The notes under the pieces: generated by a model
Seen by the model: only the letters and a program-made list of their open reading frames with translations
What the model was told of the DNA's origin: nothing
Databases searched by the model: none
Position numbers and translations under genes: made by a program
Source of the DNA: Elusimicrobia bacterium RIFOXYA12_FULL_51_18
GTDB lineage: Bacteria; Elusimicrobiota; Elusimicrobia; Elusimicrobiales; UBA9959
Direction of reading: 5' to 3'
DNA: 64,000 nucleotides
NCBI GenBank assembly: GCA_001800245.1
Contig: MGVA01000043.1
Location: 93,098-157,097, forward strand
Part shown: one piece after another, positions 3,842-61,642 of the stretch
Layout: the number at the start of each line of letters is the position of its first letter
Position numbering within the stretch: the stretch's first letter is position 1

Positions 3842-5172
3842 CCCGCCGGTTTCCCGGCCGCTGAGGCGGCGGCTCTGTCGGCGTCCAGAAGGCATTCTTC
3901 CATGTCGTAGTATGAATGAGCCCCGCTTCTGCCGCAGAGTTCCAGGTTTGCGTAGCGGCCCAAAGCCCCGGTCACCGTGTTAAGAGATTTTTCATAGCCC
4001 AGATACAGGAGAGGGTAGGCGAAAGGCAGCCTTTCCACTTTAAAGTCCAAAAGCTCAGATCCCTTGAATATTTTTATGGCCGAAAGGGCGTTGAACGTTG
4101 CCGCCGCTATGTCCGCATCCGGCTTGCGCCAGGTTTTGTCGTCCTCTTGGCAGAATATTTCCAGGGTAACCGGAAAGAAACCTTCTGGAACCAGGCCGCG
4201 GCTCCAGTTGAGCAGCTCGGATGCCCTGGAAAAGGGGACATCCGGGTCCTGGAAATAGACCCAGTGGTCCTTCAAGGGCGTGCGATTTTTGAGAGCCAGG
4301 AACACTATTATCAGGGAGCGGTAGCGCAGGTCCCGAGCCGCGCAGGCCAATTCGGGGTTGTCCCGGATAAGCGCGGAAAATTCTTTTAACGGGATGGTGG
4401 AAATAAGCTGCCTGAACTTTAAGGTCCCGCGGCATCCGTTTTGTTCAAATTCGAGAGCGGTCAGGCGGCCGCCCTCGGCCGTAAGTTTTAAAGGTATTGC
4501 GCCGGTAAGTATTTCTCCCCGGTCAGTGAGTTTTTTTCGCAGGGCGCCTGTAAGGCTTCCTATGCCGTCCTTCGGGTATAGGAAATGCCCGGCATTTTCC
4601 TTGGCGCCAGAGATGGGCAGGAAGATGTCGAAGAAAAGTTTTTTTAAGTCCAGGCTGCCTATGCGCCTCTCGGCCCAGATGGAGGAGATCTCTTCCGTAG
4701 GAAGGCCCCAGGCTTTTAATGAGTAATCCTTGAAATAGGCGTCATGTATTCGGGGCCCGAAGTTGCGGCCCAGCCAATCCTTGAGCGAGGCCGATTTCTC
4801 GTCCGCTTTCCGGGTGCCGTGCGTTTTGAAGCGCAGGGTTGGGAGGGCGTAAAAGATCCCATTCAGCAGCGTGGGGGGATATTGAAGGAACCGGCCGCGG
4901 GTGTAGATGCTGCTTTTCCTTTTATGGTATAACGTTCGTCCGGCCCCCAGGAGTTTTTCCACACGGCCTTTCACGTCGGCATCCTTGAAATAAAGCCTGT
5001 GGCCGCCCAGGTCGAATTTGAAATTCTTATGGGAAACGGTGGCCGCCAGGCCGCCTTCGCGCTCCGCTTTCTCCAGGATGAAAATTTTTTTCCCGCCTTC
5101 TTTAAGCCGGTCGGCGGCCGCCAGGCCGCTTAATCCCGCGCCGAGAATGGCGATGTCCGTGTTGATTTCCAT
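3838..5172 (-). CDS. FAD/NAD(P)-binding oxidoreductase (amine-oxidase / protoporphyrinogen-oxidase-like fold)
   Basis: 444-aa ORF with N-terminal dinucleotide-binding motif 'DIAILGAGLSGLAAADRL...ILEK'; translationally coupled to the B12-rSAM gene. Confidence 0.75.
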   Translation of the reverse strand: MEINTDIAILGAGLSGLAAADRLKEGGKKIFILEKAEREGGLAATVSHKNFKFDLGGHRLYFKDADVKGRVEKLLGAGRTLYHKRKSSIYTRGRFLQYPPTLLNGIFYALPTLRFKTHGTRKADEKSASLKDWLGRNFGPRIHDAYFKDYSLKAWGLPTEEISSIWAERRIGSLDLKKLFFDIFLPISGAKENAGHFLYPKDGIGSLTGALRKKLTDRGEILTGAIPLKLTAEGGRLTALEFEQNGCRGTLKFRQLISTIPLKEFSALIRDNPELACAARDLRYRSLIIVFLALKNRTPLKDHWVYFQDPDVPFSRASELLNWSRGLVPEGFFPVTLEIFCQEDDKTWRKPDADIAAATFNALSAIKIFKGSELLDFKVERLPFAYPLLYLGYEKSLNTVTGALGRYANLELCGRSGAHSYYDMEECLLDADRAAASAAGKPAG

Positions 5173-5182
5173 TGTAAGGTCC

Positions 5183-5296
5183 GGCTTATGACCATGCCGT
5201 AACTGCCCTGTGGGAGTGCCGCAGCAAGAGCTGTGCTCATCAAGCGGCCCGGCGCTATACGCACCAAACGGTCAAGCGCTATACGTTCAGACGGCC
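5183..5296 (-). repeat. dispersed repeat core (copy A)
   Basis: Reverse complement aligns with 19839-19930 from GGCCGTCTGA to CATAGGTC, with an internal 'CGTATAGCGC' duplication. Confidence 0.75.
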
Positions 5297-19601: not shown

Positions 19602-19838
19602 TGGGCTTGAGTCCCACCCGGTCTCTTCAATTGGCCCCGGAGTTATTGGGTCCAAAGACCCAGGACGATTTTTTCTTGGTGCGAAGTCGTTCCACGAGGG
19701 GTTCAAAATGATGTTTAACCTGAAAAATTCAGTTGAATTTTTCCCTTCGCGGAGTTCAGGTGCGCTTCGTGCGGCATACACCCCGAAAACCTGGCGCGCA
19801 TTGCGCTTGGTTTTCGACCCGCTGCTGCGGGGAATCCC

Positions 19839-19955
19839 GGCCGTCTGATGCGCATAGCGCTGGGCCGCGTTGATGAGCATAGCTCTTGATGCGGCACGCC
19901 CATAGGTCAGTTACGGCATGACCATAGGTCTAATACGGCACCTACGCAGGTATTG
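19839..19955 (+). repeat. dispersed repeat core (copy B) ending in three tandem 22-nt units
   Basis: Units at 19887-19908, 19909-19930 and 19931-19952, each 'nnAT/TACGGCAYnnCCATAGGTC'-like. Confidence 0.75.
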
Positions 19956-24310: not shown

Positions 24311-24488
24311 AAAATCTCCTTAAATCGGATAGCTGGAAAGTATCACCGTGTGTCTTCAGCCCGCATAACCGACCATTGATACTGTTCCTACGCAGGTATT
24401 GTATAATTTTAACAGTATCGTATTAAAAAACTGTTAAATAATTAAAAATTTCCGATATATAGCGTGGGGTGCGACAGGTGGGGGAACC

Positions 24489-28180: not shown

Positions 28181-28288
28181 TTTGAGTGGAGGACCCCTAC
28201 CCGGTTGCGCTTTTGGGTATCTTTTGTGACAAAAGGGTCAGGTCATGAAATTTATTAAAATACAATGGGATGGTTTTTGAGAGGTAAT

Positions 28289-28672
28289 ATGGTTAAACAA
28301 TTGTTTATTTTGATCTTGATCGGGATTTCGATATGCCTTTCAGGCGGCACTTATGGTTTAGGGCCTTTCCTGCACGCTGAAGCAGTGTTGCTGGTGTTCG
28401 GCGGAACTTTTCTGCTTACGTGGGCGGCTTATCCGCTCAAAGAGATTCTACATCCATCCGGCCCTGCCCCGCTCGTATATGCCGGCGGATCTGCTATAGG
28501 CCTGGGGGTACTGGTCACACTGCTGGATTTGATGGTTGAGTTTTGGGTCGGCCCTGGAACCGCAGAACTTACGCGTCGTTTCGCGGCAGCGCTGGCCGGT
28601 CTGTTCTACGGGTTCCTGCTCTCAAAAGTCATCATAGCTCCTATTGCCGCGCGCCTTGCCGTAAGGGAGTAG
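28289..28672 (+). CDS. small membrane protein with MotA/ExbB-like C-terminal helices
   Basis: 'LAGLFYGFLLSKVIIAPIAARL' resembles the last TM pair of MotA/TolQ/ExbB channels; no MotB/ExbD partner nearby. Confidence 0.4.
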   Translation: MVKQLFILILIGISICLSGGTYGLGPFLHAEAVLLVFGGTFLLTWAAYPLKEILHPSGPAPLVYAGGSAIGLGVLVTLLDLMVEFWVGPGTAELTRRFAAALAGLFYGFLLSKVIIAPIAARLAVRE

Positions 28673-28818
28673 GGGGAGGAGAAAAGGTAACAGGAACCTT
28701 TTGTGCCCAGTAGCGGAGAGCAAGCTCCACCGTCATTCTATAGTGGAGGAGGTACACGGGGCTGGGGCGGAGGGCAAATCCCGGACAGGCCATGGCGGGG
28801 CTTCTCGCGGCGCTACCC

Positions 28819-28843
28819 CCAAAGCCAACCAGTTGCCGTTACA
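28819..28843 (+). repeat. copy of module 'CCAAAGCCAACCAGYYGCC-GTTAC'
   Basis: 17/19 identical to 35490-35508 and to the reverse complement of 33618-33636. Confidence 0.7.
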
Positions 28844-28992
28844 TAATAACTCTAAATCTGTATTTCTTTTTCTGCCATCTTTCTTTCTTCCGAATAATCC
28901 ATATTGCCGATGCTTCCCGCCAGGGAGGTCGAAAGCTGGGTTGCAAAACGGGGGTTGGCACTTTTAGGGGGGGATTTTGTAAACTTACGCTA

Positions 28993-30399
28993 ATGACTCA
29001 GCCTCGCAAAACACTCAATAAACTGCTGAAACCTTCACAGGCTATTCATGCGCTTCATCCGGAGGTTCCGAAGAACGAGGTTATCCACGCGTTGCGTGAG
29101 CGCGTCAAGGAATTGACGGCGCTTCACTCCACGGTATGCGTGCTGCAGGATGACAATCTTTCGACAAAAGAGGTGCTTGACCGCATAGTCAAGCTTATCC
29201 CGCCGGCATGGCAGTACCCGGAAATTACCTCGGGGCGCATAATCGTCGGAGACTGTGAAGGCCGGAACCGCGGCTTCAGGCGCACGCGCTGGCTGCAGGC
29301 TTGCGATTTCCGGATAAGTCCGTCCCTCTCCGGCCGTATCGAGGTTTACTACCTTAAAAAAATGCCGAAAGAGGCGGAGGGCCCGTTCCTCGCAGAGGAA
29401 CGCAATCTTATTAATTCCCTGGCCGATATGCTTCGGGTTTATTTTGAGCGCAAGTCGGCTTCGAAGGAATTGCTGGACGCGCACAACGACCTGGAACGGC
29501 GTGTGAAAGACCGCACGGCCGAACTGGAGAAGCTTAACTCCGCCCTGAAAGCCGAGATCAGAGAACGTGAGCTGCGCCAGAAGGAAATACTCTCTTATCA
29601 GGAAAAACTGCGGGGCCTCTCGGCGGAGCTCATTCTGACGGAGGAGCGCGAACGCAGGGAGATAGCCACGGACCTGCACGATATAATAGGCCAGACGCTG
29701 GCCATGGCTAAAATGAAGGCCGGCGCCCTTCGCGGCTACTGCTCCGTCCCTGAAGCGTCTTCCGAACTGAAGAATCTTTCGGGTTTTATAGACGAAGCGA
29801 TACTCGCGAGCCGTAACCTGACTTTCCAGCTGGCTTCTCCCATACTTTACGAGTTGGGCCTTGAGAGCGCGCTTGAACGCCTGGCTGCGGATACGCGCAA
29901 ACGTCAGGGTCTTGCGGTGGATTTTCACGGCGACGGCAGACGCACTTCTTTGCCTACTGAGACCAGTGTTCTGATCTTCAAGGCGGTGCGCGAACTTCTG
30001 ATGAATGCCGTGAAACACTCGAAGGCCTCGGAAGTAAAGGTGAGGATGCGCAGCGGCGGTGGCAAGATAGCTGTAACTGTGCGTGATAACGGCTGCGGTT
30101 TTAACGCCGCGGCGGCTTCGGTCTATGACGGCGATAAGGGGGGCTTCGGGCTTTTCTCCATCAGGGAAAAAGTTTCCCGCCTGGGCGGGGCCTTCCGGCT
30201 GAGTTCGCGCCGGGGTTCGGGCACGCTGGCGGTAATAACGGCGCCTCTGGAGCCTGTCCGACATAAGGCGTTCATGGCGAAACTGCCGATTTTGAAGCCG
30301 AGCCGACGCGACGCGAAACTAGCATCCTCGACTAGAGGATGTAAGTTGAGCGGCGCTAAGGCGCAGGCAAAAAGCGGCAGTTGCAGACGAAATCGCTAA
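28993..30399 (+). CDS. cytoplasmic sensor histidine kinase (HisKA_3 / NarL-partner type)
   Basis: Start at 'MTQPRK'; coiled coil; H-box 'DLHDIIGQTLA'; 'LLMNAVKHS', 'DNGCGF', 'GGFGLFS'. The last 40 or so codons are encoded by a dispersed repeat. Confidence 0.8.
   Translation: MTQPRKTLNKLLKPSQAIHALHPEVPKNEVIHALRERVKELTALHSTVCVLQDDNLSTKEVLDRIVKLIPPAWQYPEITSGRIIVGDCEGRNRGFRRTRWLQACDFRISPSLSGRIEVYYLKKMPKEAEGPFLAEERNLINSLADMLRVYFERKSASKELLDAHNDLERRVKDRTAELEKLNSALKAEIRERELRQKEILSYQEKLRGLSAELILTEERERREIATDLHDIIGQTLAMAKMKAGALRGYCSVPEASSELKNLSGFIDEAILASRNLTFQLASPILYELGLESALERLAADTRKRQGLAVDFHGDGRRTSLPTETSVLIFKAVRELLMNAVKHSKASEVKVRMRSGGGKIAVTVRDNGCGFNAAAASVYDGDKGGFGLFSIREKVSRLGGAFRLSSRRGSGTLAVITAPLEPVRHKAFMAKLPILKPSRRDAKLASSTRGCKLSGAKAQAKSGSCRRNR
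30290..30368 (+). repeat. dispersed repeat copy (modules M1-hairpin-M2) at the HK/RR junction
   Basis: 28-nt block 26/28 identical to the reverse complement of 33870-33897; central hairpin CATCCTC/GAGGATG (30323-30341). Confidence 0.7.
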
Positions 30400-30432
30400 T
30401 GTCGGACATGCTCCCAAGCAAGGATAAACGAA

Positions 30433-31080
30433 ATGGAAAAAAAGATACTGATCTGCGACGATCATAAGATATTCCGTGAAGGCCTGCGCGCCCTGCTTGA
30501 AAAACAGCCCGGCATTAAAGTGATCGGCGAGGCCAGGGACGGCATAGAGTCGGTGCGTCTGGCCAAAGAACTTTCTCCGGACATCGTCATAATGGATATT
30601 TCAATGCCCGGCCTGAACGGCATAGAGGCTTCCCGCAAACTCGCCAAAACGCGGAAAGCGGCGCGTATAATCGCTCTCTCAATGCACAACGACCGTAAGT
30701 ACGTGACGGAGATTTTCAAGGCCGGCGCGCGCGCCTACCTGTTAAAAGATTCGGCTTTTGAAGAGCTTTTGGACGCTATCAAGGCGGTGAATTGCGGCCG
30801 GTTCTTTCTGAGCGCCGGCATCACAAGCCTGGTGCTGAGCGATTATATAAAGGGGCCCGCCGGAGACCCCCGCAGTCCGTTCACTATACTTTCCGCGCGC
30901 GAAAGGGAAGTGCTGCAACTCCTGGCCGAGGGGCTGCGTACCAAGGAGATATCTCACAAATTGGACTTAAGCGTCAAGACGGTGGAAACCCACCGCAAAA
31001 AAATAATGGAAAAAATAGGGATTACTAGCATTGCCGGCCTCACCCGTTACGCGGTAAAGGAGGGTCTGGTAAGTCTGTAA
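30433..31080 (+). CDS. NarL/LuxR-family response regulator
   Basis: Receiver domain 'ILICDDH...DIVIMDISMPGLNG'; LuxR HTH 'LSAREREVLQLLAEGLRTKEISHKLDLSVKTVETHR'. Confidence 0.9.
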   Translation: MEKKILICDDHKIFREGLRALLEKQPGIKVIGEARDGIESVRLAKELSPDIVIMDISMPGLNGIEASRKLAKTRKAARIIALSMHNDRKYVTEIFKAGARAYLLKDSAFEELLDAIKAVNCGRFFLSAGITSLVLSDYIKGPAGDPRSPFTILSAREREVLQLLAEGLRTKEISHKLDLSVKTVETHRKKIMEKIGITSIAGLTRYAVKEGLVSL

Positions 31081-31160
31081 GCATAGCGTCTTTGTCCTTA
31101 TTTCTCAGGGTTCTTTGTTTTGGCCCTGTAGTCGTTCGTAAGGTTTTTCCACCATGCCGC

Positions 31161-31204
31161 TCAGGGAATCCCTGATACCCGCCATCCTCCGCAATCCCTA
31201 TAAT
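31161..31204 (+). promoter_or_regulatory. 15-bp perfect palindrome plus TATAAT box upstream of amt
   Basis: TCAGGGAATCCCTGA at 31161-31175; TATAAT at 31199-31204; no good -35, suggesting activator dependence. Confidence 0.3.
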
Positions 31205-31256
31205 TGATTAAGCGCAAAGTTGCAGCGTCAATAATCAATACGGAGGGAAATCATAT

Positions 31257-32468
31257 ATGTTCGATACCGGAAATACGGGTTTCATGCTCGTTTCGACCAG
31301 CCTCGTTATGCTCATGACCCCGGGACTTGCTTTTTTCTACGGCGGGCTTGTGGGCCGCAAGAACGTGCTGGCGATAATGATACAGAGCTTCGTTTCCATG
31401 GGCGTCACCACGGTGCTTTGGTACGCTTTCGGCTACTCACTGTGCTTCAGCGGCGGGGAGGGTGCTGTGATAGGCAACCTGGACATGGCTTTTATGCACG
31501 GCATCACGCCTACAACGGCCTTCGCCGGCTCCACCAGCATCCCGTTGCTGGTGTTCTTCGGCTACCAGATGATGTTCGCCCAAATCACCCCGGCGCTCAT
31601 CACCGGCGCGTTTACCAACCGAATTAACTTTAAGGCCTACCTGATCTTTCTGGTAGCCTGGCTGATCTTCGTTTACTTCCCCCTCTGCCACATGGTCTGG
31701 GGCGGCGGCCTTATGGCCGCGCACGGCGTGCTTGACTTCGCCGGTGGCATAGTGGTACACGCGACGGCGGGCTTCGCAGCCCTGGCCTCGGTGTTCTTCG
31801 TAGGTAAACGCAAGGTGAAAGACCAGGGCGCGCACAGCATACCGCTGGTGGCGCTTGGCACCGGCCTGCTCTGGTTCGGGTGGTACGGCTTCAATGCCGG
31901 CAGTGAATTGAAGGTGGATTCGGTGACTGCGCTCGCGTTCATCAACACCGACGTGGCGGCTTCCTTCGCCGCCATCACCTGGCTGGCCATCGCCTGGGTG
32001 CTTGAGAAGAAGCCCAAGTTCGTCGGCTTGCTGACCGGCTCCATCGCCGGTCTCGCCACCATTACCCCGGCGGCCGGCTACGTTACCACCAAGTCCGCGG
32101 TGTTCATCGGCATTCTCTCCAGCGTGGTTTGCTATATGGCGGTAAACATGAAGAACAAGATGGGCTGGGATGACGCTCTTGATGTATGGGGCGTGCACGG
32201 AGTGGGTGGAGTCCTGGGCGTGGTAATGCTCGGCGTCCTCGGCACTACAGCGGTCAACGCCGCCGGCGCCAACGGCCTGTACCATGGCGACGCCGCGTTC
32301 TTCGGCAAGCAGGTGGCGGCGGTGTTCTGCACCGCGCTTTACGCATTCCTGTTCTCTTACGCCGCTCTCTACGTCATCAATATCTTTACTCCGGTAAAGA
32401 CCGCGGAGAAGGAAGAAGAGACCGGTCTCGACGAGGCGCAGCATGGGGAAACCGCCTACCTTGCATGA
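31257..32468 (+). CDS. amt: ammonium transporter
   Basis: 'AFFYGGLV', 'DFAGGIVVHATAG', 'GWYGFNAGS', 'WGVHGVGG'. Confidence 0.9.
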   Translation: MFDTGNTGFMLVSTSLVMLMTPGLAFFYGGLVGRKNVLAIMIQSFVSMGVTTVLWYAFGYSLCFSGGEGAVIGNLDMAFMHGITPTTAFAGSTSIPLLVFFGYQMMFAQITPALITGAFTNRINFKAYLIFLVAWLIFVYFPLCHMVWGGGLMAAHGVLDFAGGIVVHATAGFAALASVFFVGKRKVKDQGAHSIPLVALGTGLLWFGWYGFNAGSELKVDSVTALAFINTDVAASFAAITWLAIAWVLEKKPKFVGLLTGSIAGLATITPAAGYVTTKSAVFIGILSSVVCYMAVNMKNKMGWDDALDVWGVHGVGGVLGVVMLGVLGTTAVNAAGANGLYHGDAAFFGKQVAAVFCTALYAFLFSYAALYVINIFTPVKTAEKEEETGLDEAQHGETAYLA

Positions 32469-32541
32469 CTAGGAGAGTCTCTAAAAGCCCGCCCGTGGGC
32501 AACTGGCGGGCTTTTGTCGGCTATTATTGAGGAGAAATATA

Positions 32542-33282
32542 ATGAAAAAATTACATATGCTGGCGTTAGTTCTTATATTCCTGGCCCCGCTGACGGCGAA
32601 TGCCACTCCTTCCACGCAGATCTGGATACCATCTACCGACATACAAAAGTATAAAACTCCGCACCTGAATGTTGATAATTACGCGGCGGTCAAAAAAGAA
32701 CCGGGTGGCCTGTGGAAAGCTCCTGTTTTTATGGCGGGACCCACCATTGGAGTGCTGCCTTACGAAAAAGTTCAGGCGGAGGCCGGGTTTGATGTGATGA
32801 GGGCGGGTTTAGCTTCGGACAGCTATCCGTTCTATTTACATGCCAAGGTCGGCACTCCGGAAAGGACTATGTTTGCCGGCTCTCCGGCGCTGGCTGTCGG
32901 CGGCTATAATTTCGGCATGAAACAAGGGGTTACCAACCAGAATATTGTTTATGGCTTGGCGGCGAAGAATCTGGCTAAGATCGGAAGGCTGTCCGCGGGT
33001 TATTACTCCGGTAACGACAATGTGCTTCTGGATGATAACGGCGACAAAGCCAACACCGGCGTGCTGCTTTCCTGGGACAGGAGCATTAGTGAAGTTTCCG
33101 ATAAGCTTTGGGCGGCGCTTGATTATCAGGGAGGGGATTCAGCTATGGGCGCCCTCAGTTTCGGCGTTTCCTGGGCATTTGCTTCCAACACGAGCGTGGT
33201 ACTCGGCTACGACGTGTATAATAACCACAAAATGTCCGGAGCCGATACTTTCACGGTTCAGTTCGATATCAATCTCTGGTAA
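32542..33282 (+). CDS. porin-like outer-membrane beta-barrel protein
   Basis: Signal peptide 'MKKLHMLALVLIFLAPLTANA'; beta-strand periodicity; C-terminal 'QFDINLW'. Confidence 0.5.
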   Translation: MKKLHMLALVLIFLAPLTANATPSTQIWIPSTDIQKYKTPHLNVDNYAAVKKEPGGLWKAPVFMAGPTIGVLPYEKVQAEAGFDVMRAGLASDSYPFYLHAKVGTPERTMFAGSPALAVGGYNFGMKQGVTNQNIVYGLAAKNLAKIGRLSAGYYSGNDNVLLDDNGDKANTGVLLSWDRSISEVSDKLWAALDYQGGDSAMGALSFGVSWAFASNTSVVLGYDVYNNHKMSGADTFTVQFDINLW

Positions 33283-33352
33283 GAAAAATATTGCCAGCGG
33301 AATGTTTGAATGAAGAATGCGGTTAAAAGTTGACGACACAAAGGAGAATGCG

Positions 33353-33538
33353 ATGAATACCAATAACACAAACAACAACCGGAATAAGAACAAGCAACAG
33401 AATCGGAACAATCAGCAGCCCCAGAACCAACAGCAGAATCAAAACCAGCGGCAGAATCCTAACCAGCAACAGGATCAGGCCCGGCAGCAAAATCAGCCGC
33501 AGCCCCAGCAGCCGAAGAAAAAGTCCTGCTGTTGCTAA
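33353..33538 (+). CDS. Gln/Asn-rich micro-protein ending in SCCC
   Basis: AAAGGAG RBS 6 nt before the ATG; 61 codons dominated by N/Q/R/K; terminator immediately downstream. Confidence 0.45.
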   Translation: MNTNNTNNNRNKNKQQNRNNQQPQNQQQNQNQRQNPNQQQDQARQQNQPQPQQPKKKSCCC

Positions 33539-33560
33539 GCTGCCAAGTTGTTTTAAATTC

Positions 33561-33592
33561 AAAAGGCCCCGCCTATAAAGCGGGGCCTTTTT
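33561..33592. terminator. bidirectional intrinsic terminator
   Basis: GGCCCCGC (33565-33572) / GCGGGGCC (33580-33587), A-run before and T-run after. Confidence 0.7.
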
Positions 33593-33599
33593 CACTTCC

Positions 33600-33930
33600 A
33601 AGTAAACAAAATATAGTGGCGGCTGGTTGGCTTTGGCGCGAGAGCCGCATGATCGCGCAGTCGGGCCGCCGGCGGGTTTTCTGCGCGCTTCGGGACCGGG
33701 TTTATGGGAATGAAAACCGGAGTCTCCCGCCGGCTTCGCAACTCGGGCAAAAGACAAGCCTATGGCAGTGCCGTATCAGGGACTGTGTCTATCAGACGGC
33801 CACCGCACTGCGGTTTCCCCTGCTGCGCCATCGCGCTGCTCAACTTACAGGTTCATTGGAGCCTGTTCGTTTCGCATCGCTTCGGCTCGGCTTCAAAAAA
33901 TAAATTCAGTTTTGGGGTATGTTGACAACC
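33600..33930 (-). ncRNA. longest copy of the modular intergenic repeat family; candidate structured RNA
   Basis: No credible ORF; contains all repeat modules in one array, nested helices (33668-33676 pairs with 33726-33734), and runs into the 33561-33592 terminator on the minus strand. Confidence 0.35.
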
Positions 33931-34394
33931 AGAACAATGGAGGCAAAACTGAAGGTTTTAAAGCAAAACACCAACCCGAAGTGAGTTGGTGAATTGCCTG
34001 TAAATTGGCGCGGTCAATGGGGGCCCCAACATAACTTTTTTGTGTTCGGCCTTCATTGGGGAAACCAGTTTTATCCCATCCTTTTCTCTTACTTTGGATC
34101 TATTTCAAATAATTGGATTTGAGCAAGGGCGAAAGGTTCCTGTCAGCCGTACCTGAAGCCGTATAAACCCATAAATTTAGAATCCGTTTAACTTAAGGGG
34201 CAAGGGGATTCGGACTGCGCGCAAAATTTATAAAACAGCCACTCTTTTTGTATCATACCGGTAAGGGGATATTTCTGCTACTTTCCGCGAAAAAATTGGG
34301 ATAAAGAAACGACTGCGCTGAAACTCCACAAAAAATATCAAAACGTACATCCAGTTGTTCTGGTAAGCTGTTGGTGAGGATTCAGGATAAGAAT

Positions 34395-35279
34395 ATGGAT
34401 TATCTAGAGCGTATTCAAAGATCGTTGGATTGGATGGAGGCCAATCTCCATGAAGATATCGGTTCGCACGAAGGAGCCCGGGAGGCATTCATGTCCCCTT
34501 GGCATTTCCACTGGGTGTTTAAGGCCATGGTGGGGGAAACTCCTGGCGATTATCTTCGCAAGCGACGATTAACAAACGCCGCGCAGGAACTCGCACACGG
34601 TGATAAAAGGATAATTGAGATAGCTATGGATCACCAGTTCGAATCCCAGGAATCCTTCAGCCGGGCTTTCAAAAAGCATGTTGGAGCGACACCTGGTCAA
34701 TACCGTATAAGCAGGCCGCTCCTTACGGTATTGTCCAAACGAATGCGTCTGACCGAACGGGAGCTCAGACACCGTACAGGAGGAATGACAATGAAACCAA
34801 AAATAGTTTCAAAAGAAGAATTCAATGTGGTCGGCATGGTGATAAAAACCACTGTAAAGGAGAATGCTGAAGGCAAGACTATCCCGAGATTGTGGGCCAG
34901 GTTCAATCCACGCGTGAAAGAGATATCTAATGTGTCCGAACGCATTTCTTACGGTATATGTCTCAACGAAAAAGGTTTTGACCCCAAAACCTTTGATGAT
35001 GTTGCGAAGTTCAATTATATGGCCGCCGTACCGGTGAAGAAACTTGCCGGGATTCCTAAAGGCATGGCACTGCGTACGATCCCGGCTCAGAAATATGCCG
35101 TATTTACCCACAAAGGTTCGCTTGATAACTTGCGGTTTACGCTGGAGTATATTTACGGAACCTGGGTAGCGAAGTGCGGATATGAACTGGCGCAGGGACC
35201 CGATTTAGAGTTGTACGACCATAGATTTAAATTCGGACAGCAGGATAGTGAGTTGGATATTTATGTCCCGGTAAAATAA
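34395..35279 (+). CDS. AraC-family transcriptional regulator with GyrI-like effector-binding domain
   Basis: AraC HTH 'FMSPWHFHWVFKAMVGETPGDYLRKRRL...SQESFSRAFKKHVGATPGQYR'; C-terminal GyrI-like half; ATG at 34395 preceded by AGGA. Confidence 0.85.
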   Translation: MDYLERIQRSLDWMEANLHEDIGSHEGAREAFMSPWHFHWVFKAMVGETPGDYLRKRRLTNAAQELAHGDKRIIEIAMDHQFESQESFSRAFKKHVGATPGQYRISRPLLTVLSKRMRLTERELRHRTGGMTMKPKIVSKEEFNVVGMVIKTTVKENAEGKTIPRLWARFNPRVKEISNVSERISYGICLNEKGFDPKTFDDVAKFNYMAAVPVKKLAGIPKGMALRTIPAQKYAVFTHKGSLDNLRFTLEYIYGTWVAKCGYELAQGPDLELYDHRFKFGQQDSELDIYVPVK

Positions 35280-35489
35280 CCCCGGCCCCGGAAGAGATCA
35301 CCCGGCGGACCCCGCGAGCCTCACAAGTAAAACGTCAGACTTCTATCGAAAGATAGATGTGTCTTAAATATGGGCGGGATTGTTGTTAACAATTTAAGGA
35401 AGTGGCGAGTAACGGGCTAAAGGACCATCAAGTGCGTAAGTTTTACGCGGGGTGACAGGCCCTCGCTTTGCTATCCTGCGATGCTCAAG

Positions 35490-35513
35490 CCAAAGCCAAC
35501 CAGCCGCCGTTAC
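35490..35513 (+). repeat. copy of module 'CCAAAGCCAACCAGCCGCC-GTTAC'
   Basis: Exact reverse complement of 33618-33636; overlaps the stop codon of the minus-strand TPR gene. Confidence 0.75.
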
Positions 35514-37252
35514 TTATTTTTTTTCTGCAGGGTTTCTAATCTTTCAAGGTTTAGGGCGGCGTTGCGGGAATCTGGGGATAGCTTTAGTGCCCTTTCAAAT
35601 AATCCTTTAGCCTCGGGGTAGCGGCCGTTATTGGCATAAATAATGCCGGTGTCGTTCATGGCTTGCGGATTATAAGGGTCTAGGCGCAGCAAAGTTTCAT
35701 ATACGGCCAGCGCTTCGATTTCTTTTTTCTGCCGCAGATAAAGCCCGGCCAGCGTAGTGTGGGCCGGCTCATTGCCAGGCGCGGACTCAATGGCGCGCTT
35801 CAGATCGCGTTCCGCCCCGGTAAGATCGCCCCCTTCTATAAGGAAGCACGCCTTGTTCACCAGAGCCTCGGAATTATCAGGATGCCGGGTAAGCAGGCGG
35901 TCCAATACCGCCTCTGCCCCGGTCTTGTCTCCGGTCTTCCAGAGGCTCAGCGCCAGGCCGTTCAGGTAAAGCGGGTTGTCGGGGTCCAGGCTTGAGACGC
36001 GCGTCAGGATGGCCCGGCTCTTTTCAAACTGCCCGGCCAGATAATACTCCCGCGCCAGATTGTAGAGCATGGGCTTTGAGCTGGAATAGCGTGCGGCGTG
36101 TTCGTAGATCCTGAGGTCCGTTGAGCGCAAACGGATGTTCGCATTGGCGGCCGCCAGCCAGAAAACAACCAGTCCCCCGGCGCAAACACCGGCCGCCGCT
36201 TTTTTGAGGTTGCCGCCTTCAAACAGGCGCGCGGCTATAACCGCCGCGGCCGCGTAAAGCCCTAGGTTTGAGAGATATGTCCAGTGTTCCAGCATCAGGT
36301 CGCCTCCGGCCAGGAGCGGAAACTTCGGCGCGAGGCTGAGAACATACCAGCCGAAAGCGAGAATTATAGCGCGCGGATTGTATTTCAGCAGGCCGAACAG
36401 GAAGGCGGCCCAAAGGGCATAGACCGCGTAAAACCATGGCGCGAAATCGGGCTGCATACGGTGGGAGTGCATATTGAGCGGGAGAAAAGCGTTCTTAATA
36501 TAGACGATTATTGCAGGCGGGATTTTTTTGCCGGCCTGGAACAAAAATGCCGCCGCGCCGGTATCAAAAGGCCCCGCGCCGGTCGCGGCGTGCCTGAGCC
36601 AGAGATAAAAAGGAATGGGTAAAAGAAAAGGCAGCAGTTTCAGATATTCCCGTTTGTCCTTCCCAAGGAACCAGAGTGAGAGCGCCGTCAGCAACGGCGT
36701 AATGATCCCGTTCTCCTTGAAACCCAAAGCCATCAGGAACGTCGTAAACGAAAGCGCGTAGCTCCGCCTTAAAAAAAACAGCACGGAAGCCAGCGTGAAA
36801 GCGGAAGAAGCCAGTTCCGCCCTGCCCGCCACTATTATCAGCTGCTCTATGCCTGTCGGGTTGACGGCGAAGAATAGCGCCGTCAGCGAAGCGGCGGCCG
36901 AGCCCAGTCCCAATTCCGCCATAAGCAGGAACGCCAGCAGCGTTGCGGCGGAGTGGAATAGCAGATTGGTCAGGTGATAGCCGAAAGGGTTCAGCCGCCA
37001 GACGGAAAAATCCGCCATATTGCTCAAGGTCTGGAAGGGGCGGTAATAATTAAGGGCCTGGTTGAACGGGTCGGAAAAAAAAGCGTGCCGGAGGTTGGCA
37101 AGGGTCCAGGCTTTTACATAAGGATTAGCTTCTATGAACTGGTGGTCGTCCCAGATGAAGCCCAGTCCCAGAGTGGCGCCGTACGCCGCCGCGGCGGTCA
37201 GTGCGAGGCACGCCGCCAGGATCTTTTTTTTATGCTTGGCCGGTATTTCCAT
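35510..37252 (-). CDS. polytopic membrane protein with C-terminal TPR repeats (PMT/GT-C-like + TPR)
   Basis: N-terminal 'FIWDDHQFIEANPYV' and about 10 TM helices; C-terminal TPR units ('YLAGQFEKSRAIL...', 'ALKLSPDSRNA'). Confidence 0.7.
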   Translation of the reverse strand: MEIPAKHKKKILAACLALTAAAAYGATLGLGFIWDDHQFIEANPYVKAWTLANLRHAFFSDPFNQALNYYRPFQTLSNMADFSVWRLNPFGYHLTNLLFHSAATLLAFLLMAELGLGSAAASLTALFFAVNPTGIEQLIIVAGRAELASSAFTLASVLFFLRRSYALSFTTFLMALGFKENGIITPLLTALSLWFLGKDKREYLKLLPFLLPIPFYLWLRHAATGAGPFDTGAAAFLFQAGKKIPPAIIVYIKNAFLPLNMHSHRMQPDFAPWFYAVYALWAAFLFGLLKYNPRAIILAFGWYVLSLAPKFPLLAGGDLMLEHWTYLSNLGLYAAAAVIAARLFEGGNLKKAAAGVCAGGLVVFWLAAANANIRLRSTDLRIYEHAARYSSSKPMLYNLAREYYLAGQFEKSRAILTRVSSLDPDNPLYLNGLALSLWKTGDKTGAEAVLDRLLTRHPDNSEALVNKACFLIEGGDLTGAERDLKRAIESAPGNEPAHTTLAGLYLRQKKEIEALAVYETLLRLDPYNPQAMNDTGIIYANNGRYPEAKGLFERALKLSPDSRNAALNLERLETLQKKNK

Positions 37253-39455: not shown

Positions 39456-39491
39456 CCCGCCGGTCCGGCGGACGCCCGTTGAAATAGCGGG
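39456..39491 (+). repeat. 36-nt twin-hairpin repeat (copy 1)
   Basis: 35/36 identical to 61607-61642; CCGCC-GGTCC-GGCGG and CGCCCG-TTGAAATAG-CGGG hairpins. Confidence 0.8.
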
Positions 39492-53494: not shown

Positions 53495-53565
53495 AGCGGG
53501 CGATGGGAATCGAACCCACATCTCAACCTTGGCAAGGTCGTGTACTACCACTGTACGACGCCCGC
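53495..53565 (-). tRNA. tRNA-Gly (anticodon GCC)
   Basis: Minus strand GCGGGCG...CTTGCCAAG...GGTTCGATTCCCAT-CGCCCGC-T; cloverleaf arms present, CCA not encoded. Confidence 0.9.
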
Positions 53566-60115: not shown

Positions 60116-60295
60116 CCTCTCCACCCATACCCGCCGGCAAAAAAGAAAAACAGCGGCATATTCTACCGTGCAAGTCTGCTACGGATTTAATAGAATTAAC
60201 CAAAGGGTGTTGTAAGCTGACAGAAGCTGACCAAGTGAAGCCCACTACCGTCCAAAAGTTAATCAGGTGGTTGCCGGCGGGTATCAGTGGAGGGG
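60116..60295. repeat. 25-bp imperfect (14-bp perfect core) inverted repeats flanking 130 nt
   Basis: ATACCCGCCGGCAA (60127-60140) is the exact reverse complement of TTGCCGGCGGGTAT (60271-60284); the arms extend to 22/25 matches. Confidence 0.7.
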
Positions 60296-60462
60296 TGACG
60301 GGTGTCAGGCTTTTTCGACCCCGAAGGTGAGGACTGGCTTTAGAGCGGAACATAATTATGTTCCGCGCCCGGTCCGCAAGGAGGGAACGCGAAAAAGACT
60401 GACCCCGGCAGGACCCCGAACTGGCAGCCGCCGGAGCAAGGAACTCAATAATTCGGATTTAC

Positions 60463-61638
60463 ATGAAAATTTTAATAGCTCCTAATGCGTTTAAAGGCAC
60501 TCTTGGCCCGCTGGCGGCGGGGCGGGCCATAGCGCGCGCGCTTAAGAAGCTCGCGCCAGGCGCGAAGCTTGAGTTATTGCCGGTTTCGGACGGCGGGGAT
60601 GGGCTGTTGGAAACGTTCCTGTTCGAATACAAAGGCCGGGGCCGCAGGGTGCTTTCTGTGCCCGGTCCGCTGTCCAAGCCTGTGCGCGCCCGCTGGGTCA
60701 TGGCCGGGGACACGGCCGTTATAGAGATGGCCGAGGCCGCGGGCTTGAAATACCTTTTAAAAAAAGAGCTTGCGCCTCTTGACGCCACCACTTTCGGCGT
60801 CGGGAAGCTGATCGGGGCCGCGGTTGCGGCCGGAGCGCGTTTGGTGATAGTGGGGCTGGGGGGCAGCGCCTCAAATGACGGTGGGGCGGGTTGCGCTGCG
60901 GGTTTCGGCTTCAGGCTGCTGGATAAGCGCGGCCGCCCGGTGCCTCCCGGCGCCCGAGGACTGCTTAGGCTTGAAAGGATACTTCCGCCGGCTTCTGCGG
61001 CCAGTTTGCCGCGTATCAGGATCATAGCTCTTACCGATGTTGATAATCCGCTGACTGGCCCGCGCGGTTCGGCCCGGGTCTATGGTCCTCAGAAGGGAGC
61101 GGATCCGGCGGATGTCGTAGTTATGGAAAAAGCGTTGCTTCATTACGCCCGCGTAATTAAACGCGAACTTGGCATAGATATAAAGGATCTGAAGGGCGGG
61201 GCGGCGGCGGGAGGACTTGGAGCCGGTCTTTACGCTTTTTTCGGAGCCAGGCTGACCGGAGGTTCTGATTTTGTGCTCAAGCGGATGAATTTTGAGGCCG
61301 CAGTGAAGAGATGCGACCTTGTTATCACCGGCGAAGGCCGTTTCGACGAGCAAAGTTTCAGCGGGAAGGCGCCGTTTATGGTCGCGCGGCTCGCCCGTAG
61401 TTATAAAAAACCGGCGCTTATGGTTTGCGGCTCCTGCGCAGTGGAAGATCTTAGCAGCCTCAAAGGCTGCGGCATAAGCGGGGTAATTGCTTTGGACACG
61501 GTTCTCCCGCTTTCCGAACTTCTCGGTAGCCCCGCTTCGGCTATGACCAAAGGGATTCTGCTTTCCAGTGATATCGTGGCCCGGTTTCTCCAACCCATAA
61601 AACTCCCCCGCCGGTCCGGCGGGCGCCCGTTGAAATAG
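60463..61638 (+). CDS. glxK: glycerate kinase
   Basis: 'MKILIAPNAFKGTL', 'LPVSDGGDG', 'VITGEGRFDEQS'. Confidence 0.9.
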   Translation: MKILIAPNAFKGTLGPLAAGRAIARALKKLAPGAKLELLPVSDGGDGLLETFLFEYKGRGRRVLSVPGPLSKPVRARWVMAGDTAVIEMAEAAGLKYLLKKELAPLDATTFGVGKLIGAAVAAGARLVIVGLGGSASNDGGAGCAAGFGFRLLDKRGRPVPPGARGLLRLERILPPASAASLPRIRIIALTDVDNPLTGPRGSARVYGPQKGADPADVVVMEKALLHYARVIKRELGIDIKDLKGGAAAGGLGAGLYAFFGARLTGGSDFVLKRMNFEAAVKRCDLVITGEGRFDEQSFSGKAPFMVARLARSYKKPALMVCGSCAVEDLSSLKGCGISGVIALDTVLPLSELLGSPASAMTKGILLSSDIVARFLQPIKLPRRSGGRPLK

Positions 61639-61642
61639 CGGG
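61607..61642 (+). repeat. 36-nt twin-hairpin repeat (copy 2)
   Basis: 35/36 identical to 39456-39491; supplies the last codons and the TAG stop of glycerate kinase. Confidence 0.8.

What the first reader, a model, noticed from the sequence alone, without database searches (positions are those of the whole stretch)
33600..33930. Longest copy of a modular intergenic element: candidate structured RNA of about 330-370 nt ending at an intrinsic terminator
No credible ORF covers this stretch. The minus strand carries every module that recurs singly elsewhere in the window, in this order:
- 'TTGAAGCCGAGCCGAAGCGATGCGAAAC'
- a 5-bp hairpin (33847-33851 pairs with 33862-33866)
- 'AAGTTGAGCAGCGCGATGGCGCAGC'
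- 'GGCCGTCTGAT'
- one 'TGATACGGCACTGCCATAGG' unit
- a 9-bp long-range helix (GCCGGCGGG 33668-33676 with CCCGCCGGC 33726-33734) enclosing a nested CCGG hairpin
- 'CCAAAGCCAACCAGCCGCC'

The array then reaches the GGCCCCGC/GCGGGGCC terminator at 33561-33592. The module copies elsewhere are at 30290-30368, 19839-19955, 5183-5296, 24376-24401, 28819-28843 and 35490-35513, with related GC-rich helices at 60127-60300. This architecture fits either an independently transcribed non-coding RNA or the master copy of a non-autonomous repeat. I do not recognise it as any Rfam family from memory.
Basis: partly seen in the sequence, partly recalled or inferred. Interest (0 to 1): 0.7.

Follow-up and report, generated by a model that had tools for sequence, protein, structure and literature searches.

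The report
Pile-up of fragments of small mobile repeats
The proposed 330-nt RNA gene is a one-off patchwork of broken pieces from at least four families of small mobile repeats that litter the genomes of these groundwater Elusimicrobia, so it is ordinary repeat debris and not a new RNA gene.

Summary
The sequence features are real and the modules recur far above chance, but the RNA-gene reading fails.

On the minus strand, 33898-33613 is four abutting pieces:
- the central 76 nt of a 163-165-nt MITE, with both terminal inverted repeats missing;
- the first 22 nt of a ~57-nt nested module (Q);
- one complete 46-nt two-hairpin mini-insertion (S);
- the 3' half of a ~210-nt long-hairpin repeat (P) plus its ~50-nt tail (T).

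The flanks, including the terminator at 33561-33592, are unique sequence.

The MITE is demonstrably mobile. A metagenome scan gave 91 matching stretches. It has three TIR classes and 4-bp YTAR (or 3-bp TWA) target duplications. Empty orthologous sites exist, including one for the window's own complete copy at 30250-30413. An IS1182-family element carries a similar TIR.

No other locus in the sequence examined shares the Q/S or S/P junction. The region is absent downstream of the orthologous gene in relatives. Rfam finds nothing.

Verdict: new MITE-type repeat families in an uncultivated Elusimicrobiota genome. The locus itself is a decayed chimera. Low interest, though the S mini-element and the hairpin+T modules deserve a look.

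The parts
33823..33898 (-). Both TIR-bearing arms are missing.
   Evidence: 98.7% identical over 76 nt to the cores of A-type MITE copies. 80-92 BLAST hits in the metagenome loci. Full elements are shown. Exact coordinates.
33801..33822 (-). First 22 nt of nested module Q (CAGGGGAAACCGCAGTGCGGTG). The full Q is ~57 nt and sits at this same position in some A- and B-type MITE copies.
   Evidence: Filled copies L009, L024, L042, L044, L073, L059 versus many Q-less copies. 10-13 hits. Coordinates.
33755..33800 (-). Complete 46-nt mini-insertion S (GCCGTCTGAT..GAC-ACA-GTC..ACGGCACTGCC-ATA-GGCTTG). It has two small hairpins with A-Y-A triloops.
   Evidence: The same 46-nt unit is present or absent at identical sites in other repeats, always after TTG and ending in TTG. 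The stems differ between copies but stay complementary.
33663..33754 (-). 3' half of the long-hairpin repeat P (L084-type apex). The 5' half is absent, so the family hairpin cannot form.
Evidence: nhmmer E 1.7e-30, profile positions 111-268 of 274. Alignment A4 shows columns 1-113 missing. Family fold supported.
33603..33662 (-). Tail module T (GACTGCGCGATCATGCGGCTCTCGCGCCAAAGCCAACCAGCCGCCACTAT; the exact string is 33613-33662, the nhmmer match runs to 33603).
   Evidence: About 16 T-like matches, about 12 of them good, behind different hairpins in the window and loci. Window copies at 28783-28849 and 35466-35518.
33561..33592 (.). Bidirectional intrinsic-terminator hairpin (GGCCCCGC / GCGGGGCC) with T-runs on both strands. 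Unique sequence, not part of any repeat.
   Evidence: Weak Rfam matches in this stretch are essentially all to this hairpin, on both strands. Fold. Zero repeat coverage. Lies 23 nt downstream of the + strand ORF 33317-33538.
30250..30413 (+). Complete A-type MITE copy (TIRs GAGCCTGTCCGACATAAGG / CTAATGTCGGACATGCTC) carrying the second copy of the '5' module'. It is inserted between the histidine-kinase and response-regulator genes.
   Evidence: Absent at the orthologous junction of L104 and L105, where 171 nt in the window correspond to 4 or 2 nt.
28783..28849 (+). T tail copy D, behind a degenerate GC-rich hairpin.
35466..35518 (+). T tail copy F, behind a different hairpin (GGCGAG...CCCTCGC). 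Its end overlaps the stop codon of the convergent TPR gene.
5184..5275 (-). Array of nested S units in the 5' region of gene 3838-5172.
   Evidence: 86% identical over 86 nt to 19841-19926, and similar to the nested S arrays of L002/L013.
19836..19955 (+). Array of nested S units (S inside S, plus extra right-half units).

Best explanation
The stretch 33603-33898 is non-functional debris: a chimera of truncated, non-autonomous mobile repeats. It is not one element or one RNA gene.

Shown:
1. The '5' module' is the middle of a 163-165-nt MITE. That MITE has terminal inverted repeats, duplicates a 4-bp YTAR target (3-bp TWA in one subfamily), and is present or absent at orthologous sites.
2. Small modules (Q at ~57 nt, S at 46 nt) occur as discrete insertions inside those MITEs and inside other repeats.
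3. The 3' third of the locus is the 3' half of a ~210-nt hairpin repeat (P) plus its tail (T).

Inferred history:
- S had inserted after a TG in a Q-bearing MITE, and after the TTG of the apical loop of a P element.
- Recombination or deletion between the two S copies then fused the left part of the MITE to the right half of P.
- The left MITE arm was lost separately.

Inferred mechanism: the MITE is mobilised in trans by an IS1182/IS5-type DDE transposase that recognises its TIRs. Without TIRs this copy is immobile. The enzyme that moves S is unknown. As a unit the locus does nothing. The downstream terminator belongs to unique flanking DNA and can terminate the + strand amt operon.
For: Decomposition:
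- Step-wise repeat coverage of 92, 10-13, 18, 9-13, 5-8 and 4 hits along the element, dropping to zero in both flanks.
- Exact coordinates of the pieces.
- The core is 98.7% identical to A-type MITE cores.
- The P/T part matches at E 1.7e-30, covering only profile positions 111-268.

MITE status:
- 91 stretches matched in metagenomes; 93 pattern instances were read in the loci held, about a dozen of them unrelated chance matches.
- 49 distinct canonical copies of 163-165 nt in both orientations.
- Identical 4-nt flanks in 26/36 A-type loci (CTAG) and 18/20 C-type loci (TTAG, CTAA, TTAA). Identical 3-nt flanks in 8/10 B-type loci.
- Empty sites with a single TTAG or CTAA: L084 vs L047 and L086 vs L079.
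- The window's own MITE at 30250-30413 is absent in L104 and L105.
- An IS1182-family transposase element in L022 is flanked by CTAG, and 16 of its 20 terminal nt match the C-type TIR.

S and Q as insertions:
- Filled versus empty copies at the same positions.
- The S in L079 versus S-less copies in L059, L050 and L102.

Junction logic: L084's P apex reads ..GCTTTG|TCTTTTGCCCGAG. The window reads S..GGCTTG|TCTTTTGCCCGAG.

Against an RNA gene:
- No Rfam family.
- The P-family fold has 27 compensatory pairs and 0/500 shuffles reach it, but it needs the missing 5' half.
- No alignment with real similarity spans the Q/S or S/P junction.
- Sequence downstream of the 246-aa gene (33283 onward) is not conserved in L103-L106, although the operon is about 80% identical.
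Against: - Transcription was not and could not be tested. A weak promoter-like pair (TTGTCA, 18 nt, TTTATT) lies just upstream on the minus strand, and a terminator follows.
- The stretch folds more stably than shuffles (z -2.5 on the minus strand, -3.3 on the plus strand). This is expected of palindromic repeats and is as strong on the other strand.
- The core is nearly identical to the family consensus, so the rearrangement is recent, not ancient decay.
- The recombination route is inferred from junction sequences only. No intermediate (S in Q, or S in a P apex) was seen elsewhere.
- The comparison set (~0.9 Mb) was gathered by matching the core, so copy numbers of the other modules are biased low.
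- The closest relatives with DNA are only about 80% identical, so absence there does not exclude a young, species-specific function.
Confidence: 0.85

Rival explanations
1. One reading: an independently transcribed, structured minus-strand ncRNA of 330-370 nt, starting near 33900-33930 and ending at the terminator at 33561-33592.
For: - No coding potential.
- A terminator-like hairpin lies downstream.
- MFE z-score is -2.5.
- The apical hairpin of the core is kept by compensatory changes among copies.
- A -35-like TTGTCA lies upstream.
Against: - No Rfam match.
- The architecture is unique to this locus.
- The long-range helix lacks covariation.
- The conserved P fold cannot form because half of it is missing.
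- The modules are independently inserted mobile units.
- The region is not conserved in relatives.
- The promoter scan finds no sigma-70-type site on the minus strand.
- The plus strand folds even better.
Confidence: 0.05
2. Exapted cis element on the + strand. The reverse complement of T and the P half lie just after the amt/246-aa/small-ORF unit and its terminator. They could act like REP/BIME elements as a 3'-end RNA-stabilising or insulating structure ahead of the AraC-family gene.
For: - In at least 9 of ~12 good T copies, the reverse complement of T begins 0-40 nt after the stop codon of a gene on that strand. Examples are TPR in the window, PriA in L084/L047 and a PAS protein in L089.
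- T's 3' part and flanks are conserved at an orthologous locus while the hairpin differs.
- The + strand fold has z -3.3.
Against: - Here T lies beyond a canonical terminator, so little read-through RNA would contain it.
- The hairpin partner is truncated.
- Placement after stop codons can equally reflect insertion-site preference or tolerance.
- T shows no consistent covarying structure.
- The region is absent in relatives.
Confidence: 0.1
3. Master or source copy of a single modular non-autonomous repeat, from which the shorter copies elsewhere derive.
For: It carries more different modules side by side than any other locus in the window.
Against: - Complete family members elsewhere have ends that this copy lacks. 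These are the MITE TIRs, the rest of Q and the 5' half of P.
- The modules have separate copy numbers and separate insertion sites.
- Longer nested copies exist elsewhere, up to about 320 nt between TIRs.
Confidence: 0.02

Closest known systems
Bacterial MITEs derived from IS5/IS1182-type DDE insertion sequences (known-family properties recalled from memory, not looked up)
   Same: - 163-165 nt, non-coding, with 18-19-nt TIRs.
- 4-bp YTAR/CTAG or 3-bp TWA target duplications.
- Many dispersed copies in both orientations.
- Empty orthologous sites.
- An IS1182-family element with a similar TIR and a CTAG duplication in the same community.
   Different: - Three unrelated or diverged TIR classes (A, B, C) share one ~100-nt core that is better conserved than the arms.
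- No autonomous partner was found for A or B.
- The copy in the finding has lost both TIRs.
Mosaic extragenic repeats: E. coli BIME/REP and pneumococcal BOX (boxA-boxB(n)-boxC) elements (from memory)
   Same: - Modular, hairpin-rich, extragenic and variable in module number.
- Often directly after stop codons or between convergent genes, as seen here for T.
   Different: - Here the modules are separate insertion units with their own empty sites, not a fixed A-B-C order.
- No REP-type GTAG palindrome family was identified.
- No RAYT/IS200-like gene was found in ~0.9 Mb (weak test).
Very small nested repeats of cyanobacteria (small dispersed repeats, Elhai and colleagues 2008; recalled from memory, not found in the paper library)
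   Same: S is tiny (46 nt). It inserts into MITEs, into other repeats and into itself.
   Different: - Unrelated sequence and a different phylum.
- S has two A-Y-A triloop hairpins and a TTG at both junctions.
IS200/IS605-type palindrome-associated elements (PATEs) moved by HUH Y1 transposases (from memory)
   Same: - S has small hairpins near both ends.
- S has no convincing TIRs.
- S has one fixed orientation relative to a short target (TTG) at five or more independent sites.
   Different: - The TTG at both junctions could equally be a 3-bp duplication.
- No TnpA or RAYT was found.
- At 46 nt, S is far smaller than described PATEs.
Neisseria Correia elements (from memory)
   Same: - MITE of 100-160 nt, abundant and transcribed with neighbouring genes.
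- Can change gene ends. Here MITE E rewrites the C-terminus of a histidine kinase.
   Different: Correia elements duplicate TA and have their own TIR family. There is no sequence relation.

Membership tests
MITE (non-autonomous DDE-transposon derivative) | Terminal inverted repeats at both ends | tested here: met
   Met for the family and for window copy 30250-30413. NOT met for the copy inside the finding, which starts at the core (33898) with unique sequence upstream.
MITE (non-autonomous DDE-transposon derivative) | Target-site duplication of fixed length | tested here: met
   Identical 4-nt flanks in 26/36 A-type and 18/20 C-type loci. Identical 3-nt flanks in 8/10 B-type loci. Non-palindromic cases (TTAG/TTAG, CTAA/CTAA, CCAG/CCAG) show direct, not inverted, repeats.
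MITE (non-autonomous DDE-transposon derivative) | Presence/absence polymorphism at orthologous sites | tested here: met
   L084 vs L047 and L086 vs L079. Window 30249-30419 vs L104 and L105.
MITE (non-autonomous DDE-transposon derivative) | Short, non-coding, multi-copy | tested here: met
   163-165 nt. 91 stretches matched in metagenomes. Several copies per large contig.
MITE (non-autonomous DDE-transposon derivative) | An autonomous element with matching TIRs encoding the transposase | tested here: inconclusive
   The IS1182-family element in L022 (NF033551, E 9e-71, score 239 below the curated cut-off of 270) shares 16/20 terminal nt with the C-type TIR and has a CTAG duplication. No partner was seen for TIR types A and B.
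Any described RNA family (Rfam 15) | Covariance-model match at or near the gathering score | tested here: not met
   The only window hit is a tRNA at 53495-53565. In 33400-34100, matches reach at most 26.7 bits and essentially all fall on the terminator. Full-length P copies also have no hit.
Novel structured ncRNA gene | Homologues with the same architecture and covariation in the proposed helices | tested here: not met
   No locus shares the Q/S or S/P junction. For the 9-bp helix, 296/500 shuffles reach its paired fraction, pairs with a double change and cells with a double change, 217-351/500 reach the other two measures, and it has 1 double change.
Novel structured ncRNA gene | Conservation at the orthologous locus in related genomes | tested here: not met
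   HK-RR-Amt-246aa is about 78-82% identical in L103-L105, but similarity stops at 33282.
Novel structured ncRNA gene | Own promoter and discrete transcript | not testable with these tools
   The promoter scan finds no minus-strand sigma-70-type site. No expression data are available.
Intrinsic terminator | GC-rich hairpin followed by a U-run | tested here: met
   33561-33592, with T-runs on both strands. It lies in unique DNA and also follows the + strand ORF 33317-33538.
IS200/IS605-type PATE or REP/RAYT system (for S, T) | Hairpin ends, orientation-specific insertion next to a short target, and a Y1 HUH transposase in the genome | tested here: inconclusive
   Hairpins and fixed orientation after TTG were seen at five or more sites.
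Integron attC site (considered for hairpin+T after stop codons) | Paired core sites RYYYAAC ... GTTRRRY | tested here: not met
   By inspection of the T alignment, the end reads G/A-T/C-TAC, with no GTTRRRY partner at the other end.

The most novel reading that the evidence does not exclude
The locus itself is debris, but two of its components may be new kinds of small mobile or functional DNA.

(a) S is a 46-nt unit made of two A-Y-A-triloop hairpins.
- Both stems covary between copies.
- It inserts in one orientation after TTG into MITEs, into other repeats and into itself.
- This would make it one of the smallest mobile units described, perhaps moved as single-stranded DNA by an unidentified HUH-type enzyme.

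(b) The 'long hairpin + T tail' modules sit directly after stop codons. They swap their hairpin at orthologous loci while keeping the end of T. This would make them a cassette-like family of 3'-end elements.
Probability: 0.25. Interest if true: 0.5.

Novelty: new member of a known kind. Interest (0 to 1): 0.22.

Why it matters
- It prevents a false ncRNA annotation. Hairpin-rich repeat pile-ups next to a terminator imitate an RNA gene.
- It documents that groundwater Elusimicrobiota (here RIFOXYA12_FULL_51_18 and relatives) carry abundant, recently active MITE families. I found no report of these. Three TIR classes share one core, with layers of nested mini-insertions.
- One copy has rewritten the C-terminus of a histidine kinase and separated it from its response regulator. 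This is a concrete example of MITE-driven gene change.
- The S mini-element and the hairpin+T modules are leads for people who study minimal mobile DNA.

Tried and rejected
- **Rfam.** Gathering scan of the whole window and permissive scans of 33400-34100 and 33900-34400 found nothing beyond a tRNA and terminator look-alikes. Full-length P loci likewise.
- **Genome-contig scan.** A strict T pattern gave one AT-rich Patescibacteria match without the rest of T. I judged it chance.
- **tRNA/tmRNA.** ARAGORN finds none near the locus.
- **Coding potential.** No Pfam hit for any overlapping ORF.
- **attC, group II intron ends, RNase P, 6S, SRP, tmRNA.** I compared signatures by eye and from memory and found no match. 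These were leads only.
- **RNA versus DNA hairpin test.** G-U versus A-C asymmetry in the MITE alignment was 79 vs 14. This traces to a few inherited positions, so it is uninformative.
- **Literature.** Searches for Elusimicrobia MITEs, small dispersed repeats, and IS1182 MITEs returned nothing relevant.
- **Residual left MITE arm.** I looked upstream of 33898. Identity starts only at TTTTGAAGCC.
- **Island hypothesis.** I asked whether the two direct T copies (28783 and 35466) bound an inserted island. The 7.3-kb segment 28181-35509 is indeed missing in L101, but its left border is not at T and no integrase is present. This is unresolved.

Full report
**1. What is there**

- Local BLASTN confirms that each module recurs in the window. 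The 5' module recurs at 30290-30366 (+). The tail recurs at 35470-35524 (+) and 28807-28844 (+). The GGCCGTCTGAT/ACGGCA..CATAGG module recurs at 5249-5207 (-) and 19851-19906 (+).
- The 20-mer TTGAAGCCGAGCCGANGCGA occurs twice in the window against 0.00 expected.
- No ORF across the stretch hits Pfam.
- Rfam finds only a tRNA elsewhere in the window. In the local permissive scan, the weak matches fall essentially all on the hairpin at 33561-33592, on both strands.

**2. Host**

- DnaB in the window is 92% identical to Elusimicrobia bacterium GWA2_56_46.
- The 246-aa protein next to the locus is 100% identical to one from Elusimicrobia bacterium RIFOXYA12_FULL_51_18.
- Public Rifle-aquifer assemblies contain the same sequence. 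L093 is 100% identical over 21 kb.

**3. The '5' module' is the middle of a MITE**

- A metagenome scan with the 20-mer returned 91 stretches. 93 pattern instances were read in the loci held. About 80 of them share the same context; the rest are unrelated chance matches.
- The context is a 163-165-nt element with terminal inverted repeats. There are three TIR classes around one common ~100-nt core: A (GAGCCTGTCCGACATAAGG), B (GAGCCTATCCGTAATTAG) and C (CAGTCTGCTGAAAAACCC).
- Among distinct loci, 26/36 A copies are flanked by CTAG on both sides. 18/20 C copies have identical TTAG, CTAA or TTAA flanks. 8/10 B copies have identical TAA or TTA flanks. The non-palindromic cases show these are direct duplications, not longer TIRs.
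- Two C copies have empty orthologous sites with a single TTAG or CTAA: L084 vs L047 and L086 vs L079.
- An IS1182-family transposase element in L022 is flanked by CTAG, and 16 of its 20 terminal nt match the C-type TIR.
- The window's own second copy of the module is a complete A-type MITE at 30250-30413. The orthologous histidine-kinase/response-regulator junction in L104 (GWF2_52_66) and L105 lacks it. There, 171 nt in the window correspond to 4 and 2 nt.

**4. Smaller units are nested insertions**

- Some MITE copies carry a 46-nt unit S between GAAATTG and CCGATT. Others carry it between GTAAGTTG and AGCGGC. Most copies are empty at both sites.
- An S in L079 lies in an unrelated repeat. 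The copies of that repeat in L059, L050 and L102 lack it and read ...GCCTTTG|AGCGACTGC.
- In these MITE and L079 sites S follows a TG (usually TTG), ends in TTG and has the same orientation. In the window's own S arrays at about 5184-5275 and 19836-19955 the left flank ends in AAG and CCG instead. S also occurs inside S, in L002 and in window 19836-19955.
- The two small hairpins of S keep an A-Y-A loop while their stems change in a complementary way. Hairpin 1 appears as GCGC/GCGC, GAGC/GCTC, AGGC/GCCT, ACGC/GCGT and GAC/GTC. Hairpin 2 appears as GCC/GGC, GGC/GCC and GACC/GGTC (sequences).
- A ~57-nt module Q is likewise present or absent between GGCGCAG and GCAAAAAG in A- and B-type MITEs.

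**5. The 3' third is half of another repeat**

- BLAST hits to 33745-33614 led to full-length elements in L084, L089 (two copies), L027 and L029.
- These are ~210-nt irregular hairpins (P) followed by a ~50-60-nt tail (T).
- Five copies support the hairpin: 93.6% of cells paired, 27 of 75 pairs with compensatory changes, and 0 of 500 shuffles reaching this.
- The window piece aligns only to columns 114 onward, which is profile positions 111-268 of 274. The 5' strand of every long helix is missing.
On the alignment 296/500 shuffles reach its paired fraction, pairs with a double change and cells with a double change, 217-351/500 reach the other two measures, and it has one double change.

**6. 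Decomposition of the finding**

| Coordinates (minus strand) | Piece |
|---|---|
| 33898-33823 | MITE core, 98.7% identical to A-type cores |
| 33822-33801 | First 22 nt of Q |
| 33800-33755 | S, complete |
| 33754-33663 | 3' half of P |
| 33662-33613 (to ~33603) | T |

- Repeat coverage falls in steps along these pieces and is zero in both flanks, including the terminator.
- No alignment with real similarity crosses the Q/S or S/P junction, so the arrangement is unique.
- The P apex in L084 reads GCTTTG|TCTTTTGCCCGAG. The window reads S...GGCTTG|TCTTTTGCCCGAG.
- From this I infer that S sat in a P apex and in a Q-bearing MITE, and that recombination or deletion between the two S copies made the chimera. 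This step is inference.

**7. Context**

- The HK-RR-Amt-246aa unit is 78-82% identical in L103-L105, but similarity ends at 33282. The small ORF, the terminator and the composite are specific to this genome.
- The terminator follows the + strand ORF 33317-33538 by 23 nt and has T-runs on both strands.
- The promoter scan finds no minus-strand site upstream of the composite.
- The stretch folds better than shuffles on both strands (z -2.5 and -3.3). This is what palindromic repeats do.

**8. Verdict**

The locus is a recent, immobile chimera of fragments of MITE-type and smaller repeats. It is not an RNA gene and not a master copy. The families are new members of a known kind.

What remains open:
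- the enzyme that moves S;
- why three TIR classes share one core;
- what the hairpin+T modules are.

On the last point:
- the reverse complement of T starts 0-40 nt after a stop codon in at least 9 of ~12 good copies;
- at one orthologous locus the hairpin differs while the end of T and the flanks are kept.

Noticed in passing
window 33958-34250 (probably - strand); L104 11398-11690: A ~270-nt non-coding block is 73-79% identical between this genome and Elusimicrobia GWF2_52_66, but in a different gene neighbourhood. On the minus strand it ends in a hairpin + U-run (33991-33969) that is kept by compensatory changes. A 1-nt indel breaks the only shared small ORF. There is no Rfam hit and the MFE z-score is -0.21. 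It is a candidate sRNA or regulatory DNA, directly upstream of the finding.
   Followed up: partly
window 30250-30413 with HK ORF 29092-30399: The MITE insertion replaced the last four codons of the histidine kinase (relatives end ..APLGKDK*) with 52 MITE-encoded codons. It also pushed the kinase 170 nt away from the response-regulator gene that it abuts or overlaps in L104 and L105.
   Followed up: yes
window 28181-35509: This 7.3-kb segment (127-aa ORF, HK, RR, Amt, 246-aa ORF, composite, AraC/GyrI-like gene) is absent in relatives. In L101 and the P0005 contig, the NTP-transferase gene directly abuts the TPR gene. All three T copies, the MITE and the composite lie inside the segment. No integrase was seen.
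   Followed up: partly
window 33317-33538 (+): Small ORF with a good Shine-Dalgarno sequence. It encodes a 73-aa Gln/Asn-rich peptide ending in KKKSCCC, followed by the bidirectional terminator. Public gene calls instead annotate the antisense 79-aa Leu-rich ORF. Neither ORF has a Pfam hit. The + strand ORF is not conserved in L103-L106.
   Followed up: partly
T copies: window 35466-35518, 28783-28849, 33603-33662; L084 13100, L047 6522, L089 2020, L082 7308, L060 5855, L090 12110: The reverse complement of the T tail starts 0-40 nt after the stop codon of a gene on that strand in most copies. At the orthologous PriA 3' end (L084 vs L047), the ~200-nt hairpin upstream of T is completely different while the end of T and the flanks are about 95% identical.
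   Followed up: partly
L009, L024, L031, L042, L002, L014, L037, L092, L079; window 5184-5275 and 19836-19955: The 46-nt S unit behaves as a discrete insertion with TTG at both junctions and a fixed orientation. It is nested in MITEs, in other repeats and in itself. The mobilising enzyme is unknown.
   Followed up: partly
MITE alignment (49 copies), e.g. L015 3073-3235, L008 2718-2880, L049 6471-6635: Three MITE subfamilies with different TIRs and different target-duplication lengths share the same ~100-nt core, bounded by GCCGATTTTG...CAAAAA(G/T)CGGC. The core is better conserved than the arms, which is unusual for MITEs.
   Followed up: partly
window 60271-60448; L051, L081, L088, L020, L021: A further repeat family (GGTGAGGACTGGCAGAGCGCGG...GGTCCGCAAG...) occurs in the window. 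It also occurs as a large nested insertion inside MITE cores elsewhere.
   Followed up: no
window 39456-39491 and 61607-61642: Two copies of a 36-nt GC-rich hairpin-forming sequence (CCCGCCGGTCCGGCGG.CGCCCGTTGAAATAGCGGG), 97% identical and 22 kb apart.
   Followed up: no
L022 794-2882; L027 635-1984: IS1182-family transposase genes (585 aa and 449 aa). The L022 element has TIRs ending ..CCGCTGAAAAACCCCC and a CTAG duplication. It is the best candidate for mobilising the C-type MITEs.
   Followed up: partly
L089 1525-1595 (-): A 2'-dG-II purine riboswitch aptamer match (80.6 bits, gathering score 60) in an Elusimicrobia-type contig. It lies between two inverted P+T copies.
   Followed up: no
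L104 7030-7090 (-): A tRNA-Glu-like 3' half (anticodon arm, T arm, acceptor end) followed by a terminator, downstream of the 246-aa gene in GWF2_52_66. ARAGORN calls no tRNA there. It may be a remnant of an integration site.
   Followed up: no
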